Shown here: positions 19,178 to 23,645 of the stretch, one piece after another
Layout of the letters: each line of letters starts with the position of its first letter
Numbering within the stretch: position 1 is the stretch's first letter
Source: Promethearchaeia archaeon
GTDB lineage: Archaea > Asgardarchaeota > Lokiarchaeia > Sigyniarchaeales > SOKP01
Reading direction: 5' to 3'
DNA length: 64,000 nucleotides
Assembly: GCA_029856045.1 (NCBI GenBank)
Contig: JAHQWG010000028.1
Coordinates: forward strand, 96,001 to 160,000
Position numbers and translations under genes: made by a program
Notes under the pieces: generated by a model
Told to the model about the DNA's origin: nothing
The model's database searches: none
Seen by the model: only the letters and a program-made list of their open reading frames with translations

Positions 19178-20377
19178 ATGAGATTGAAATTAACATCAGA
19201 AGAAAAAGAGATGTTGGAAGGTAAGCAAGGAAGATCTGCTCAAAAATCCATGGAGATATTAACCACATTAGGTGAAATATTTGATGCAGAATGTATGATT
19301 GAGGTTTATAGCGTGCAAATAGCAGGAGTTTCCTATGCAAATTTAGGGGAAGCAGGTCTAGAATTTTTAAATGAGATGGCAGAAGATGGAAAGGTTAGGG
19401 TTTTAACAACTTTAAATCCAGCTGGAATGGACCGAGAAAATTGGCAAGCTTTAGGAATTGAAGAAGAATTTGCTATTAATCAAAACCGTGCTATAGATGC
19501 TTTTGCAAAAATGGGTATAATTACAACATGTTCTTGTACACCATATTTAATAGGAAATGTACCTCACTTTGGTCAGCATATTGCTTGGGCTGAGAGTAGT
19601 GCTGTCTGCTATTCAAATTCTGTCATTGGTGCTCGAACAAATCGTGAAGGTGGTCCGAGTGCGCTAGCTGCTGCTTTAACTGGAAAAACACCAAAATATG
19701 GTTATCATCTAGACAAAAATCGTCATGGACAGGTCTTATTTGAAGTTAAGGTTCCAGTGAAAGGTACAGATGAATTTGGCGTGTTAGGAAAAATAATTGG
19801 GGATAAATTGGTTGAATTAGGAAAGAAAATACCTTATATTACTGGAATTTCTTCAGCAACAGTTGAGGAACTTAAGTCATTTTGCGCTTCAGTGGCTACT
19901 TATGGAGGTACAGCATTATTTCATATGGAAGGCATAACCCCAGAATATAATATGTATCCTAAGCCAAAAGATGATATTTTTGAAATTAATCAGGATAACC
20001 TTAATAAAACTCGGTCTGATCTTATTGATGATGATATTGAAATTGATTTCGTTAGTATTGGGTGTCCTCACGCTTCAATTCACGAAATAGCAACAATTGC
20101 AAGTTTATTGAAAGGTAATAAAGTAAATAAAGAATTTTGGATTACTACTGCTCGACCTACAAAAAGAATTGCAGATGAAGCTGGCTATTCTAAAATTATT
20201 GAGGATGCTGGGGCCAAATTCGCTTCAGATACATGTTGTGTTGTAGCTCCTATTAAAGGTCGCTTTAAAGGAATTATGGTAGATTCAGCTAAAGCGTGTT
20301 ATTATGGCCGTGCAAAGAATAAATTTAAAGTAAAAATTGGCTCAATCGAAAAATGTGTTGAGGAGGCGGTAAAATGA
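19178..20377 (+). CDS. aconitase X catalytic subunit; likely phosphomevalonate dehydratase large subunit
   Basis: GVSYANLG, TLNPAG, TCSCTPY, AWAESSA, GARTNREG, IGCPH, DTC; SD-like GAGGAG upstream. Confidence 0.88.
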   Translation: MRLKLTSEEKEMLEGKQGRSAQKSMEILTTLGEIFDAECMIEVYSVQIAGVSYANLGEAGLEFLNEMAEDGKVRVLTTLNPAGMDRENWQALGIEEEFAINQNRAIDAFAKMGIITTCSCTPYLIGNVPHFGQHIAWAESSAVCYSNSVIGARTNREGGPSALAAALTGKTPKYGYHLDKNRHGQVLFEVKVPVKGTDEFGVLGKIIGDKLVELGKKIPYITGISSATVEELKSFCASVATYGGTALFHMEGITPEYNMYPKPKDDIFEINQDNLNKTRSDLIDDDIEIDFVSIGCPHASIHEIATIASLLKGNKVNKEFWITTARPTKRIADEAGYSKIIEDAGAKFASDTCCVVAPIKGRFKGIMVDSAKACYYGRAKNKFKVKIGSIEKCVEEAVK

Positions 20378-20763
20378 AGTTAGAAGGAAGAAAAATTTAT
20401 AAAGGAACTGCTGAGGCAGAAGCAATTGTAACAAAAGATGGTATTTCATTTTATGGTGGCGTTGACCCTGATACTGGTAAAGTTGTCGAGGTTGGACATG
20501 AACTTGAAGGTCAATCCATAACAGGAAAAGTTTTAGTCTTTCCTACTGGTAAGGGTTCAACTGTAGGGTCATACACAATGTATAGAATGAAAAAAAAAAA
20601 TACGGCACCAGTAGCAATCGTAAACAAACAAATAGATACAATCGTAGCAGTAGGTTGCATAATTAGTGAAATTCCTTGTGTAGATAAAATTAATATTAAT
20701 AATATTAAAACCGGACAAAAAGTTATTGTTAATGGTTCCGAAGGTACTGTGGAGGTGAAATAA
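20374..20763 (+). CDS. DUF126 aconitase X swivel subunit; likely phosphomevalonate dehydratase small subunit
   Basis: ISFYGGVDP.TG, GKVLVFP.GKGSTVGSY; 4-nt overlap with the large subunit gene. Confidence 0.9.
   Translation: MKLEGRKIYKGTAEAEAIVTKDGISFYGGVDPDTGKVVEVGHELEGQSITGKVLVFPTGKGSTVGSYTMYRMKKKNTAPVAIVNKQIDTIVAVGCIISEIPCVDKININNIKTGQKVIVNGSEGTVEVK
20751..20758 (+). promoter_or_regulatory. Shine-Dalgarno site for mvk
   Basis: GGAGGTGA ends 5 nt before ACG at 20764. Confidence 0.7.
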
Positions 20764-21730
20764 ACGGGAACTGGAAAAGGATATGGAAAGACCATCCTTT
20801 TTGGCGAAATTTTTTTCCCACTTCGGGGATAAACGCAATCATTTTGTGGTTTATGGTCTTCCCGCAATCGCATCGGCGTTAGGCGCTAATACAATCGCAG
20901 AAGTTAAAGTTGTTGAGGGACAAGGGTGGACTGTTGTCGATCAGAGACCCGCTACGACCGGCTATAAAAAAAAGAAATATGATGAAGGAATGCAATCAAT
21001 TAAAAATGTAATCAAGCATTTAAAAATAGATACAGAGAGTCAAAAACTTGGAATAACTTTTGCTGGAGATTTAATTGCTGCGAGTGGAGTTGGTGCTTCA
21101 GCGGCTCAATGTACATCACTAGCTCGGGCTTTAAACGACAGCTTTAATCTAAATTTAGACGATGAAAAGATAAATGAAGCTGCGTATGAAGGAGAGAAAG
21201 CATATCACGGAACCCCATCTGGTATTGACAACACAGCTTCAACTTATGGAGGATTGATTTGGTTTGTGAAAAACTTGAATGGTGGGAAAAATACTATGGA
21301 CCTCTTGCAATCACCAATAAAAATGCCATTAATAATCGCTAATTCAGGAATAACTGCTTCTACGATAGAAGTAGTTGCTGATGTTCGGCGTTTAAAAGAT
21401 AAAAATCCTAATAAATTTGAGAAAATTTTTAAGGAATATAAAGAAATAGCAGATAAAGCAAAAATGGCCTTACTTGAAGGAAATATTATTTCTTTAGGTA
21501 ATTTAATGAATCAAAACCACAAATTACTCCAAGAAATTACGGTTTCAGGAGAAATAAATGATAAATTAGTTCAAATAGCGTTAAAAAATGGAGCGATTGG
21601 TGCTAAAATGACAGGAACCGGGCGTGGTGGTTTAGTAATTGCTTTAGCTGAAAATAAAGAAATACAAGAAAAAATAGCCAAGGCAATCGAAAAAGGGGGT
21701 TATGATGCCTGGAAAACCATAATTGGATGA
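20764..21730 (+). CDS. mvk: mevalonate kinase; proposed spliced CDS join(20764..20808,20840..21730), 311 aa, ACG start
   Basis: exon 1 reads (M)GTGKGYGKTILFGE and exon 2 reads HFVVYGLPAIA; downstream SGVGASAA, HGTPSGIDN, GAKMTGTGRGG; SD GGAGGTGA at 20751-20758. Gene identity is secure, the splice model is inferred. Confidence 0.85.
20809..20839 (+). other. candidate 31-nt bulge-helix-bulge-type intron in mvk
   Basis: insert ATTTTTTTCCCACTTCGGGGATAAACGCAAT lies between GAA (Glu) and CAT (His) of the conserved GEH motif; folds as a hairpin with both junctions in 3-nt bulges. Confidence 0.65.
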
Positions 21731-21742
21731 GATTGATTTAAA

Positions 21743-22552
21743 TTGAATAACAATAATGAAATTTATCTATTGAAGTTAGGTGGAAGTTTATTAACTGATA
21801 AAAATAGACCCTTTTCTATTAGGAAAAATGTTGTTAAAAGCGCAGTTCAACAAATTATAGATGCTAATGAAAAATTAATATTAATTCATGGAGGAGGTTC
21901 GTTTGGCCATCCTCTTGCAAAAAAATACAACCTTTCAAAAGGAATAGATGCATCGATTCAAAATCAAATTCTTGGACTTACTGAAACTCACCAATCAATG
22001 AACAAATTCAATTCCTATTTAATTAATCAATTTTTAGAAAAAAAATATCCTGTATTATCAATTCAAGCTTCCAGCATTTTCATCAAAGATTCTCAAAATA
22101 TCTCAACTCAATCGATTAATGTTATTGAAACCGCCTTAGATCTTGATATTTTACCTATTTTGTATGGAGATATAATCCTTGATTCAAAGGGGTCATTCTC
22201 AATTATTTCTGGGGACCAAATCATCGTTGAATTATGTGAAAAAATTAAAAAGTATAATATCTTTAAAGTTATTTTCGCTATTGAAAAAGATGGATTATTC
22301 ATTAAAGAAAGAGTTAATAGCAAATTGAATATAAAACTGGCGAGAGAATTAAAATTCGAAGATTTAGATATAATTGAAATCGCTGATTTAGAAAGTAAAA
22401 TTGATGTAACAGGCGGAATTAAAGGTAAAATTAATAAAATCAAACAAATTTGTCAACAAAATATTCCCGTTCAAATAATAAATGGTTTAAAAGATGAATT
22501 TATACTTAAAGCATTAAAAAATCAAAATATTATTTCAACCAAAATAAAATGA
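21743..22552 (+). CDS. ipk: isopentenyl phosphate kinase
   Basis: LKLGGSLLTDK, IHGGGSFGH, YGD, SGDQI, DVTGGIKGK; mevalonate operon context. Confidence 0.9.
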   Translation: MNNNNEIYLLKLGGSLLTDKNRPFSIRKNVVKSAVQQIIDANEKLILIHGGGSFGHPLAKKYNLSKGIDASIQNQILGLTETHQSMNKFNSYLINQFLEKKYPVLSIQASSIFIKDSQNISTQSINVIETALDLDILPILYGDIILDSKGSFSIISGDQIIVELCEKIKKYNIFKVIFAIEKDGLFIKERVNSKLNIKLARELKFEDLDIIEIADLESKIDVTGGIKGKINKIKQICQQNIPVQIINGLKDEFILKALKNQNIISTKIK

Positions 22553-22562
22553 GCAAAGAATT

Positions 22563-23645
22563 ATGAATGAAAATGATATAAATAAGAGAAAACTGGATCA
22601 TCTAAAAATCCCAATTGAGGAGGATGTTCAACATTCTGAAAATTACTTCAAATATATTAAATTAATGCATCATTCTCTCCCTGAGGTAAATTTTGAAGAT
22701 ATCGATTTAACTACAAAATTTTTTGATAAACAAATATCGGCACCTATTTGTATTGCGGCTATAACTGGCGGACATGAAATTTCTAAAGAAATCAATAGGA
22801 TTCTTGCTACAGCCGCAGAATCAGAGAAAATCATAATGGGAGTGGGTAGTCAACGTGCTGGATTAGAAGATCTATCAACAGAGAACTCCTTTAAAGTGGT
22901 TCGAGAAGTTGCGCCTAATATTCCACTAATTGGAAATATTGGTATAGGGCAAATAAGTGAGAAAAATTTCAAAATTGAAAATTTTAAAAAATGCATTGAT
23001 ATGATTAACGCTAACGTAATGGCAATACATTTCAATGCTTTACATGAATTAGTTCAGGATAATGGGAATATCTCATATAATCTTTTCCGTTCAAATTTTC
23101 AAAAAATAAGAGAAAATATTAAGATTCCAATAATAGCAAAAGAAGTTGGAACTGGAATTAGTAAAGAAATGGCTTTAACACTTGAAAATCTCGGATTTGA
23201 TGGATTTGATGTAGGGGGTTCAGGTGGAACAAGTTTTGCTGCAATTGAATCAAAGCGAAAGAGTTATGTCGTTGAAAAATATTCACGTAACCCAGCAGAT
23301 CTTTTTAAAGATTGGGGAATACCAACTCCTGTAAGTATAATTAATGTAAGGAAAGTTTCAAATAAATTTATTATTGCGACCGGTGGACTTAGAAATGGAG
23401 TTGATATTGCTAAATCCATTATTTTAGGTGCTGATATTGGCGGATTTGCTTATAATTTCCTAGTATCTGCGTGGAAAGATTATCAAAATGATACTATTAG
23501 CAATACCATAAAGGAAATTAGAACTTTAAAGCATGAGATACGCTCTTGTCTATGGTTAATGAATTTAAAGAATATAAATGAATTAAAGAATAGTTCTAAT
23601 AAAAGAGTTATTCTTGGTATATTATATGAGTGGTTAAATCAATAA
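22563..23645 (+). CDS. fni: type 2 isopentenyl-diphosphate delta-isomerase (FMN-dependent)
   Basis: RKLDHL, ITGG, GVGSQR, GNIG, HFNALHE, KEVGTG, GGTSFAAIE, WGIPT. Confidence 0.93.
   Translation: MNENDINKRKLDHLKIPIEEDVQHSENYFKYIKLMHHSLPEVNFEDIDLTTKFFDKQISAPICIAAITGGHEISKEINRILATAAESEKIIMGVGSQRAGLEDLSTENSFKVVREVAPNIPLIGNIGIGQISEKNFKIENFKKCIDMINANVMAIHFNALHELVQDNGNISYNLFRSNFQKIRENIKIPIIAKEVGTGISKEMALTLENLGFDGFDVGGSGGTSFAAIESKRKSYVVEKYSRNPADLFKDWGIPTPVSIINVRKVSNKFIIATGGLRNGVDIAKSIILGADIGGFAYNFLVSAWKDYQNDTISNTIKEIRTLKHEIRSCLWLMNLKNINELKNSSNKRVILGILYEWLNQ

What the first reader, a model, noticed from the sequence alone, without database searches (positions are those of the whole stretch)
20764..20863. 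Candidate bulge-helix-bulge intron splitting the conserved N-terminal motif of mevalonate kinase
Seen: the frame starting at 20764 reads GTGKGYGKTILFGE (to 20808). After a 31-nt insert (20809-20839) the sequence resumes in another frame as HFVVYGLPAIA. Removing the insert restores the GHMP-kinase GKxILFGEH motif and a 936-nt open frame. The RNA folds with a central helix GGCG(20803-06)/CGCA(20834-37) (3 G-C pairs plus one G.A mismatch), 3-nt bulges AAA(20807-09) and AUC(20838-40), and an inner stem UUUUUUUCC/GGGGAUAAA. A perfect 8-bp exon-exon duplex AAGACCAU(20788-95)/AUGGUCUU(20853-60) lies further out. Known: archaeal splicing endonuclease EndA cuts after the 2nd nucleotide of each bulge. 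That predicts cuts after 20808 and 20839, exactly the junctions implied independently by protein homology. Archaeal mRNA introns are mainly known from crenarchaeal cbf5. Inference: this is a relaxed-BHB mRNA intron in an Asgard metabolic gene. It could make lipid-precursor supply depend on splicing, because the unspliced ORF (ATG 20783) lacks the conserved Lys and Glu.
Basis: partly seen in the sequence, partly recalled or inferred. Interest (0 to 1): 0.92.

Follow-up and report, generated by a model that had tools for sequence, protein, structure and literature searches.

The report
tRNA-type mini-intron in Asgard mevalonate kinase
The only mevalonate kinase gene of this Loki-type Asgard archaeon is broken inside its active-site motif by a 31-base insert shaped like a tRNA intron, so the enzyme for membrane-lipid precursors can almost certainly be made only after the mRNA is cut and rejoined, which the papers I could search confirm for the coding part of only one archaeal gene (cbf5).

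Summary
Window 20809-20839 is a 31-nt insert between the codons for GKTILFGE (20764-20808) and HFVVYGLPAIA (20840 onward). It sits in the single mvk gene of a 100%-complete Promethearchaeota (Lokiarchaeia-type) MAG. The sequence is identical in five independent assemblies.

An insert of 28, 30 or 31 nt lies at exactly this site in 64 distinct related sequences. It is cleanly absent (GAA|CAT) in 43 others, including three genomes of the same genus.

All 29 genome copies have a stop in the exon-1 frame inside the insert. In 8 of 29 the exon-2 frame is also closed, and 30-nt versions carry in-frame stops. Frameshifting or an unspliced ORF therefore cannot rescue the gene. Exon 1 is still under coding selection.

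The fold is a relaxed bulge-helix-bulge (HBh'). It has a 4-pair central helix, two 3-nt bulges, a 9-bp intron hairpin and a distal exon-exon helix. 90.6% of cells pair (about 42% when slid), and 9 pairs show compensatory changes. The predicted cuts give exactly the junction that homology requires.

The genome encodes an alpha/beta EndA with the crenarchaeal-type loop, and RtcB.

This scan has already noted the same mvk intron in other genomes. I found no paper describing it.

The parts
20751..20758 (+). Shine-Dalgarno-like GGAGGTGA, 6 nt upstream of the mvk start position
   Evidence: Read. The same arrangement occurs in related genomes.
20764..20766 (+). Putative non-canonical start codon ACG, directly after the TAA of the DUF126 gene
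   Evidence: It aligns with ATG/TTG/GTG/CTG start codons of orthologs. ACG is kept in 9 related genomes. Inference only; initiation was not tested.
20764..20808 (+). Exon 1 of mvk (15 codons, TGTGKGYGKTILFGE)
   Evidence: GKTILFGE is invariant in 29 intron-bearing copies. 12 of 19 variable columns are third codon positions.
20785..20795 (+). 5' strand of the distal exon-exon helix (pairs with 20853-20862, one bulged A at 20787)
   Evidence: 96-98% of cells paired. At least 7 of 8 core pairs are present in 28/29 intron-bearing copies but in only 3/43 intronless copies.
20803..20806 (+). Central BHB helix, exon strand GGCG
   Evidence: The Gly codon is GGC in 28/29 intron-bearing copies, against a mix of GGA/GGC/GGT/GGG in intronless ones. 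The one GGT copy has a compensating CGC>CAC change in the intron (row L083).
20807..20809 (+). 5' bulge AA|A; predicted cut after 20808
   Evidence: Geometry. The rule that cleavage falls between the 2nd and 3rd bulge residues is from PMC2738675.
20809..20839 (+). 31-nt intron
   Evidence: Same-site 28/30/31-nt inserts occur in 64 distinct sequences. The insert is precisely absent in 43.
20810..20833 (+). Intron hairpin: 9-bp inner helix h' (20810-18 with 20825-33) and 6-nt loop (20819-24)
   Evidence: 7 of 9 pairs show changes on both sides across 64 sequences.
20834..20837 (+). Central BHB helix, intron strand CGCA
   Evidence: The last position is U, giving a G.U pair, in 21 of 64 sequences.
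20838..20840 (+). 3' bulge AU|C; predicted cut after 20839
   Evidence: The cut gives the GAA|CAT junction seen in intronless orthologs.
20840..21730 (+). Exon 2 of mvk (296 codons plus stop)
   Evidence: TIGR00549 scores 208.9 bits against a cut-off of 163.
20853..20862 (+). 3' strand of the distal exon-exon helix
20783..21730 (+). Unspliced 315-aa ORF (MERPSFLAKFFSHFGDKRN-HFVVY...), the form called in public databases
   Evidence: Its N-terminus is not conserved (28 distinct peptides in 29 copies). The frame is closed by a stop in 8 of 29 relatives.
20170..21020 (.). Tract of about 850 nt, centred on the intron site, in which this genome differs strongly from its intronless congeners (a recombination mosaic)
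   Evidence: Sliding identity is 96-99% in the flanks and 50-88% in the tract. The direction of exchange is not resolved.

Best explanation
The 31 nt at 20809-20839 are a tRNA-type (bulge-helix-bulge) intron in the mvk pre-mRNA.

Proposed mechanism. In the transcript of the mevalonate operon, exon-1 GGCG pairs with intron CGCA. A 9-bp intron hairpin stacks on that helix. Two 3-nt bulges (AA|A and AU|C) lie on opposite strands, and a 10-bp exon-exon helix further out holds the two exons together. The genome's alpha2-beta2 splicing endonuclease (EndA, with the crenarchaeal-type loop that allows relaxed motifs) cuts after 20808 and after 20839. RtcB joins the exons and probably circularises the intron. 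The mature mRNA encodes a 311-residue mevalonate kinase with the intact GKTILFGEHFVVYG motif.

Consequence. This is the only mvk, so isoprenoid lipid synthesis depends on this splicing.

Shown here: the sequence, conserved site and size, the closed reading frames, covariation, exon synonymous-site constraint, and the enzyme genes.

Inferred: the cleavage and ligation themselves, and use of ACG as the start codon.
For: 1. Position and clean absence. Inserts of 28/30/31 nt lie at the identical codon boundary in 29 genomes and 35 further metagenome contigs. The junction is an exact GAA|CAT in 43 intronless orthologs, including 3 congeners at 88-90% protein identity.

2. The reading frames need removal. 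All 29 genome copies have a stop inside the insert in the exon-1 frame. In 8 of 29 the exon-2 frame is closed with no start after the stop. The 30-nt versions carry in-frame stops.

3. Exon 1 is coding. GKTILFGE is invariant and 12 of 19 variable columns are third positions, while the alternative-frame peptide differs in 28 of 29 copies.

4. Structure. 90.6% of 1529 cells pair against 40-44% when slid. 9 pairs have changes on both sides (49 cells). No shuffle of 500 reaches any of the five measures (29-sequence MAFFT version). One exon GGC>GGT change is compensated by intron CGC>CAC.

5. Exon synonymous sites are constrained only when the intron is present. GGC occurs in 28/29 intron-bearing copies against 11/43 intronless. 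The distal helix has at least 7 of 8 pairs in 28/29 against 3/43. In the 5 independent contrasts the direction never reverses.

6. The cuts predicted by the 2nd/3rd-bulge-residue rule (PMC2738675) equal the junction required by homology.

7. Machinery. There are two EndA paralogs. One is closest to the A. pernix catalytic subunit 3P1Z_B (E 1.8e-38) and aligns without gaps across the loop region, with Tyr/His/Lys kept. The other lacks the His. RtcB is present. Asgard EndA is reported as (alpha-beta)2 with the L1 loop (PMC5829648).

8. The genome has a single mvk. The next GHMP kinase is galactokinase-like.

9. The sequence is identical in 5 independent assemblies.
Against: The motif is relaxed. 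The outermost central pair is G.A in this genome and in 43 of 64 sequences. The outer helix next to the 3' bulge is a single U-A pair followed by an internal loop.

The local fold is no more stable than shuffled sequence (z -0.69).

RNAalifold prefers a competing exon-exon pairing, GCGAA with UUUGU, which has no covariation.

The 35 extra metagenome sequences were retrieved with a pattern that fixes both strands of the central helix. They therefore cannot add variation there. Alignment A3 was also fitted to the model.

The spliced ORF lacks a canonical start codon.

No spliced-junction contig with intron-type exons was found in the metagenome collection. Whether that collection holds RNA-derived contigs is unknown to me.
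Confidence: 0.87

Rival explanations
1. The insert is removed or skipped at the RNA or translation level, but not by EndA. Candidates are translational bypassing (as in phage T4 gene 60 or the yeast-mitochondrial byp elements), programmed frameshifting on the U-run, or another nuclease/ligase pair.
For: The hairpin lies just after the take-off position. This genome has a U7 run (20810-16) that could be slippery, and a +1 shift there would reach the exon-2 frame. No RNA data were obtained to exclude these routes.
Against: Bypassing needs matching take-off and landing codons. The take-off codon here is GAA, while the codon before CAT is AAT, AAA, TAT, TAC, TAG or TAA.

Frameshifting cannot work in the 30-nt versions, where the frame is unchanged and stops are in frame. 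It also fails in the copies whose exon-2 frame ends in TAG/TAA just before CAT. The U-run is not conserved. Frameshifting would also insert about 10 residues inside the invariant GEH motif.

The conserved 3-nt bulges on each side of a 4-pair helix, with cuts falling exactly at the junction, are what EndA requires. None of these alternatives explains that.
Confidence: 0.06
2. The intron-bearing allele is a disabled or decaying gene, or MVK activity comes from the unspliced 315-aa ORF starting at ATG 20783, or from another kinase.
For: The unspliced ORF is open in this genome and in 21 of 29 relatives, and it is what gene callers report. A second GHMP kinase scores 124.6 bits on TIGR00549, below the cut-off of 163.
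Against: The gene is otherwise intact and under purifying selection across 64 sequences and several genera.

Exon 1 is conserved as protein although it lies out of frame with exon 2. The alternative N-terminus is not conserved, and it is closed by stops in 8 of 29 copies.

The unspliced product lacks the Lys and Glu of the GKxxLFGEH motif. That these residues are catalytically important is from my own knowledge of GHMP kinases and was not tested here.

The other kinase has the galactokinase-type N-terminus APGRICLFGEHQDY, and its best family match is galactokinase.
Confidence: 0.04
3. The insert is an assembly or sequencing artefact.
For: The source is a MAG, and the insert contains a T7 homopolymer.
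Against: 131 of 131 nt are identical in five contigs from five samples, from both JGI and Logan assemblies. Homologous inserts occur in 64 distinct sequences from many projects.
Confidence: 0.01

Closest known systems
BHB intron in the cbf5 (pseudouridine synthase) pre-mRNA of Crenarchaeota (Watanabe 2002; Yokobori 2009, PMC2738675)
   Same: It is a short intron inside the coding region, at or next to a catalytic motif. It has an unconventional (relaxed) BHB with cuts between the 2nd and 3rd bulge residues. The host has a hetero-oligomeric EndA. The intron shows patchy presence and absence among relatives, with precise loss.
   Different: The gene is different (mvk, a metabolic enzyme) and so is the phylum (Asgard/Promethearchaeota). 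The intron is only 28-31 nt. Here a distal exon-exon helix and exon synonymous-site constraint are documented. Splicing of cbf5 was shown experimentally; this one is inferred.
BHB intron in the 5' UTR of Haloferax volcanii HVO_1309 mRNA (Schwarz 2020, PMC7714728)
   Same: It is an mRNA substrate of the archaeal splicing endonuclease other than tRNA or rRNA.
   Different: It lies in the untranslated leader, not in the reading frame. The host is a euryarchaeon with a homodimeric EndA. It was shown in vivo and in vitro.
Non-canonical tRNA introns of Asgard and Thermoproteales archaea (PMC5829648; PMC11291895; bioRxiv 10.64898/2026.10.13.758758)
   Same: They have the same size class (about 30 nt), the same presumed enzymes, relaxed HBh'-type motifs, and repeated gain and loss.
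   Different: The host RNA here is a protein-coding message, so accuracy to the nucleotide is needed to keep the reading frame. No sequence similarity to other places in this genome was found.
Translational bypass elements (T4 gene 60; byp elements of Magnusiomyces mitochondria). Recalled from my own knowledge, not looked up.
   Same: They are short hairpin-containing inserts inside ORFs that are absent from the protein.
   Different: Those need matched take-off and landing codons. None exists here.

Membership tests
Archaeal BHB (EndA-spliced) intron | [quoted passage not shown] | tested here: met
   GGCG/CGCA with bulges AAA (20807-09) and AUC (20838-40). The inner three pairs are standard in 62-64 of 64 sequences. 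The outermost pair is G.U in 21 and G.A in 43.
Archaeal BHB (EndA-spliced) intron | Flanking helices h (exon-exon) and h' (intron) next to the bulges, as in the canonical hBHBh' form | tested here: inconclusive
   h' is met: 9 bp directly adjacent, with 7 pairs covarying. h is only one invariant U-A pair (20802-20841), followed by a 6/11-nt internal loop and a 10-bp distal helix. The motif is therefore of the relaxed HBh' type, not canonical.
Archaeal BHB (EndA-spliced) intron | Cuts between the 2nd and 3rd bulge residues give a functional joined RNA | tested here: met
   Predicted cuts after 20808 and 20839 give GAA|CAT. This is identical to intronless orthologs and restores GKTILFGEHFVVYG. 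The rule is from PMC2738675.
Archaeal BHB (EndA-spliced) intron | The host encodes a splicing endonuclease able to cut relaxed motifs, and an RNA ligase | tested here: met
   The alpha subunit (contig C15) is closest to the A. pernix catalytic subunit with the loop region aligned. The beta subunit (C14) lacks the His. RtcB is on C27. Loop function was not assayed.
Archaeal BHB (EndA-spliced) intron | The intron is absent from the mature RNA | not testable with these tools
No exactly spliced contig was found in the metagenome collection.
cbf5 intron family of Crenarchaeota | Located in cbf5 at the catalytic Asp codon, in Desulfurococcales/Sulfolobales | tested here: not met
   The gene is mevalonate kinase (TIGR00549). 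The organism is Promethearchaeota. It works like the cbf5 intron but is not a member of that family.
Programmed translational bypass or frameshift | Matched take-off and landing codons, or a conserved slippery site, with a frame that a shift can rescue | tested here: not met
   There is no GAA/GAG before CAT. The U-run is not conserved. The 30-nt variants and terminal TAG/TAA codons block rescue.
Mevalonate kinase (GHMP kinase, TIGR00549) | Full-length match above the curated cut-off, including the N-terminal GKxxLFGEH motif | tested here: met
   Exon 2 scores 208.9 bits (cut-off 163) from profile position 11. Exon 1 supplies the motif. The intronless ortholog P0004 covers profile positions 3-276 at 226.5 bits.

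The most novel reading that the evidence does not exclude
The mvk mini-intron is one member of a population of tRNA-type introns in Asgard protein-coding genes, and these introns spread and disappear between lineages by homologous recombination of the flanking exons.

In this reading the intron allele, with its co-adapted exon codons, moves as a block of roughly 0.85 kb. Obligatory endonuclease/ligase splicing of mRNAs for essential enzymes would then be a normal part of gene expression in the closest archaeal relatives of eukaryotes. It might also be used to gate enzyme synthesis, here membrane-lipid precursor supply.
Probability: 0.3. Interest if true: 0.9.

Novelty: new member of a known kind. 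Interest (0 to 1): 0.8.

Why it matters
In the papers I could search, endonuclease-dependent splicing of an archaeal coding sequence is confirmed experimentally for one gene only, cbf5 in Crenarchaeota. The one other mRNA case is a 5' UTR intron in Haloferax (PMC2738675, PMC7714728).

This case would extend that list in three ways:
- The gene is an essential metabolic enzyme and is the only copy in the genome.
- The host belongs to the Asgard archaea, the closest archaeal relatives of eukaryotes.
- The intron is conserved across several genera and is common in environmental sequence.

There is also a practical consequence. Public databases hold dozens of mis-framed or truncated mevalonate kinase entries for these lineages (315, 309, 319 and 293-294 aa). 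Metabolic reconstructions that require the N-terminal motif could therefore score the pathway wrongly.

The case also offers a clean test system: a 91-nt substrate with known natural variants, and intron-plus and intron-minus alleles within one genus. It could be used to study Asgard EndA specificity and how such introns are gained and lost.

Tried and rejected

**Spliced transcripts through protein databases.**
- The nearest 311-aa (intact) proteins to this genome's copy are only about 92% identical. All five members of its own 90% cluster are the unspliced 315-aa form.
- Mixed pairs at 97-98% identity (P0030/P0032, P0072/P0146) are different DNA alleles, not cDNA.

**Exact spliced junction in the metagenome collection.** A search with intron-type exons gave 0 hits. 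The unspliced form gave 51. I do not know whether that collection contains RNA-derived contigs, so this says nothing either way about splicing.

**Paralogous copies.** A blastn-short search for copies of the intron elsewhere in the genome gave only chance matches inside ORFs.

**Rfam.** No family matched within 20500-21100 at E up to 1.

**De novo genome-wide scan.** I considered scanning for other BHB-shaped inserts in genes and dropped it. My estimate was hundreds of chance hits without a protein database in the script box.

**AU test.** I tested whether the 5' tract breaks the clade of this genome with its congeners. The clade is not rejected (p 0.36), so the direction of the recombination stays open.

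**RNAalifold.** On the MAFFT alignment it returns the distal helix plus an invariant exon-exon pairing instead of the BHB. I set this aside because that pairing has no covariation, whereas the BHB helices do.

Full report
**What is there**

The window is contig C36:96001-160000 of a 3.34-Mb MAG in 55 contigs, rated 100% complete. The record titles of its nearest relatives are Promethearchaeota/Promethearchaeia, that is, Lokiarchaeia-type Asgard archaea.

The finding lies in a co-directional mevalonate-pathway cluster:
- aconitase-X large subunit, DUF521, 19178-20377
- aconitase-X small subunit, DUF126, 20374-20763
- mevalonate kinase
- isopentenyl phosphate kinase, 21743-22552
- type 2 IPP isomerase, 22563-23645

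Directly after the TAA of the DUF126 gene, the frame at 20764-20808 reads TGTGKGYGKTILFGE. A 31-nt insert follows (20809-20839). Then 20840-21730, one base out of frame, reads HFVVYGLPAIA... to the stop.

Exon 2 alone scores 208.9 bits on TIGR00549 mevalonate kinase, starting at profile position 11. An intronless ortholog starts at profile position 3. The 15 upstream codons therefore supply the missing N-terminal motif.

The genome has no other mvk. The two other GHMP-kinase hits are weak. The better one has a galactokinase-type N-terminus, APGRICLFGEHQDY, and scores below the MVK cut-off.

**Not an artefact**

The 131 nt around the insert, including the odd ACG start position, are identical in five contigs assembled from five different samples.

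**Comparative evidence**

Among 41 related genomes and 65 GTDB-species loci, I found 29 distinct loci with an insert of 30 or 31 nt at exactly this codon boundary. 43 loci have an uninterrupted ...GGN GAA|CAT TTT.... The three other genomes of the same genus, at 88-90% protein identity, lack the insert.

A pattern scan of metagenome contigs added 51 intron-bearing contigs, including 28-nt versions. In total there are 64 distinct sequences.

On a protein tree of exon 2, the insert is confined to one strongly supported clade of 62 rows. It is absent from the 10 more distant Asgard rows. Its distribution needs at least 5 changes on starred branches, and 12 on the best tree. The two deepest branches of the clade carry it, which fits an old intron with repeated precise losses. 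The root was not inferred, so this is not shown.

**Why it must be removed**

- In all 29 genome copies, the exon-1 frame runs into a stop inside the insert.
- In 8 of 29 copies, the exon-2 frame is closed by a stop within or at the end of the insert, with no start codon after it.
- The 30-nt versions do not shift the frame but carry in-frame stops.

No single frameshift, and no unspliced ORF, can therefore serve as a general solution.

Exon 1 is nevertheless under coding selection in its own frame. GKTILFGE is invariant, and 12 of 19 variable columns are third codon positions. The peptide read in the other frame (MERPSFLAKF... in this genome) differs in 28 of 29 copies.

Translational bypassing is also unsupported. 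The take-off codon GAA has no matching landing codon before CAT.

**Structure**

Its energy is unremarkable (z -0.69), so the case rests on comparison.

I tested a four-helix structure on the alignments:
- a central helix, 20803-06 with 20834-37
- 3-nt bulges at 20807-09 and 20838-40
- an inner helix, 20810-18 with 20825-33
- one closing U-A pair, 20802 with 20841
- a distal exon-exon helix, 20785-95 with 20853-62

On the 29-sequence MAFFT alignment, 90.9% of cells pair, against 40-44% when partners are slid by 1-3 columns. Six pairs have changes on both sides.

On 64 sequences aligned with a covariance model, 90.6% of cells pair. Nine pairs (49 cells) have changes on both sides. None of 500 shuffles reaches any of the five measures.

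Two caveats apply to the 64-sequence result. The alignment was fitted to the model. The metagenome sequences were retrieved with a pattern that fixes both strands of the central helix.

Within the central helix, one genome changed the exon Gly codon from GGC to GGT, and its intron changed CGC to CAC. That is a C-G to U-A compensation (row L083).

The strand order (central helix, then bulge, then flanking helix, on both strands) is that of natural BHB motifs. Cleavage between the second and third bulge residues (PMC2738675) predicts cuts after 20808 and 20839. This is exactly the GAA|CAT junction seen in intronless orthologs.

The outer helix next to the 3' bulge is only one base pair. The motif is therefore of the relaxed HBh' type, with a distal exon-exon clamp.

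**Exon constraint**

Synonymous sites of the exons behave differently when the intron is present.

| Feature | Intron-bearing copies | Intronless copies |
|---|---|---|
| Gly codon before the junction is GGC | 28 of 29 | 11 of 43 (GGA 18, GGT 10, GGG 4) |
| Distal helix has at least 7 of 8 core pairs | 28 of 29 | 3 of 43 |

The one intron-bearing exception at the Gly codon is the compensated GGT.

In the five phylogenetically independent contrasts available, the direction never reverses. Five contrasts cannot reach p < 0.05.

**Machinery**

The genome encodes two EndA paralogs.
- One is most similar to the catalytic subunit of the Aeropyrum pernix heterotetramer (3P1Z_B, E 1.8e-38). It aligns without gaps across the region that holds the crenarchaeal-specific loop, and it keeps Tyr, His and Lys.
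- The other has lost the His, as structural beta subunits have.

RtcB is present. This matches the published statement that Asgard archaea have (alpha-beta)2 EndA with the L1 loop, which confers broad substrate range (PMC5829648).

**What is missing**

Searches for a spliced form in protein clusters and metagenome contigs found none. Cleavage, ligation and use of ACG as the start codon remain inferences.

**Extra observations**

- *Start codon.* The start position is ACG, 6 nt after GGAGGTG. The same ACG occurs in nine related genomes, while others have ATG, TTG, GTG or CTG there.
- *Recombination mosaic.* This genome and its intronless congeners are 96-99% identical over the flanking 3 kb, but only 50-88% identical in a tract of about 850 nt centred on the intron site. 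In that tract this genome is closer to other genera (up to 92%) than the genus background is (about 79-84%). This hints that the intron allele was imported by homologous recombination. An AU test does not reject the alternative (p 0.36).
- *A second pair.* L100 and L101 show the same break at the intron site.
- *Mis-called public ORFs.* About 48 of the 120 best database clusters are mis-framed or truncated ORF calls caused by this intron. One example is the Loki's Castle entry KKN20588.1.

**Comparison with what is known**

The closest published case is the cbf5 pre-mRNA intron of Crenarchaeota. It shares the enzyme type, the relaxed motif, the position at a catalytic motif, and a patchy distribution (PMC2738675). 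The only other mRNA substrate I found in print is a 5' UTR intron in Haloferax (PMC7714728).

Papers on Asgard introns that I could search deal with tRNA genes only (PMC11291895; bioRxiv 10.64898/2026.10.13.758758).

Earlier notes of this scan report the same mvk intron in other genomes, and other mRNA mini-introns in this genome (dnaG, ychF, a mutase subunit). I used these as leads only and did not verify the non-mvk cases.

**Verdict**

I file this as a new member of a known kind: an EndA-type intron in an mRNA. I put about 0.87 confidence on the splicing mechanism, and interest is high.

Noticed in passing
window 20751-20766: The mvk reading frame has no ATG/GTG/TTG. The codon aligned with the start codons of orthologs is ACG, 6 nt after GGAGGTG and directly after the upstream TAA. 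Nine related genomes share the ACG, and others have ATG, TTG, GTG or CTG there. This may be non-canonical initiation or termination-reinitiation.
   Followed up: partly
window ~20170-21020 (compared with L004, L005): Recombination mosaic. Identity to the intronless congeners is 96-99% in the flanks but 50-88% in a tract of about 850 nt covering the end of DUF521, all of DUF126, exon 1, the intron site and the first 180 nt or so of exon 2. The intron allele seems to be exchanged as a block. The direction is unresolved (AU p 0.36).
   Followed up: partly
L100 vs L101 (ENA contigs): Two environmental alleles are 96.3% identical from the first base of exon 2 onward. Their exon 1 sequences are only about 69% identical. 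One carries the intron and the other does not, so the similarity break coincides with the intron site.
   Followed up: partly
L120, L125, L128, L132, L134 (metagenome contigs): Five contigs (three distinct sequences) from one set of samples (Ga01804xx) carry a 28-nt version of the intron with a shorter hairpin. 30-nt versions also exist, with in-frame stops instead of a frameshift.
   Followed up: partly
protein clusters P0002, P0112, P0053, P0119 and others: Public ORF calls for this gene are often wrong because of the intron. They appear as 315/309/319-aa proteins with a spurious N-terminus, or as 293-294-aa truncations. Examples are KKN20588.1 (LCGC14_0934010, Loki's Castle) and MCK4687162.1.
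   Followed up: yes
genome contig C36:282418-283533 (L002 643-1758): A second GHMP kinase of 371 aa has a galactokinase-type N-terminus. It scores 136 bits on a galactokinase model and 124.6 bits on TIGR00549, both below their cut-offs. Its substrate is unknown.
   Followed up: partly
whole genome G000: ARAGORN finds only 25 tRNA genes in a genome rated 100% complete, and 13 of them have an anticodon-loop intron. This fits the heavily interrupted tRNA genes reported for Asgard archaea.
   Followed up: no
window 19178-20763: Both aconitase-X subunits (DUF521 and DUF126) sit directly upstream of mvk and overlap by 4 nt. This suggests the archaeal anhydromevalonate-phosphate route; that link is from my own knowledge and was not tested. 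Related genomes of the same family carry a different, standard-type mvk only 33-41% identical to this one.
   Followed up: no
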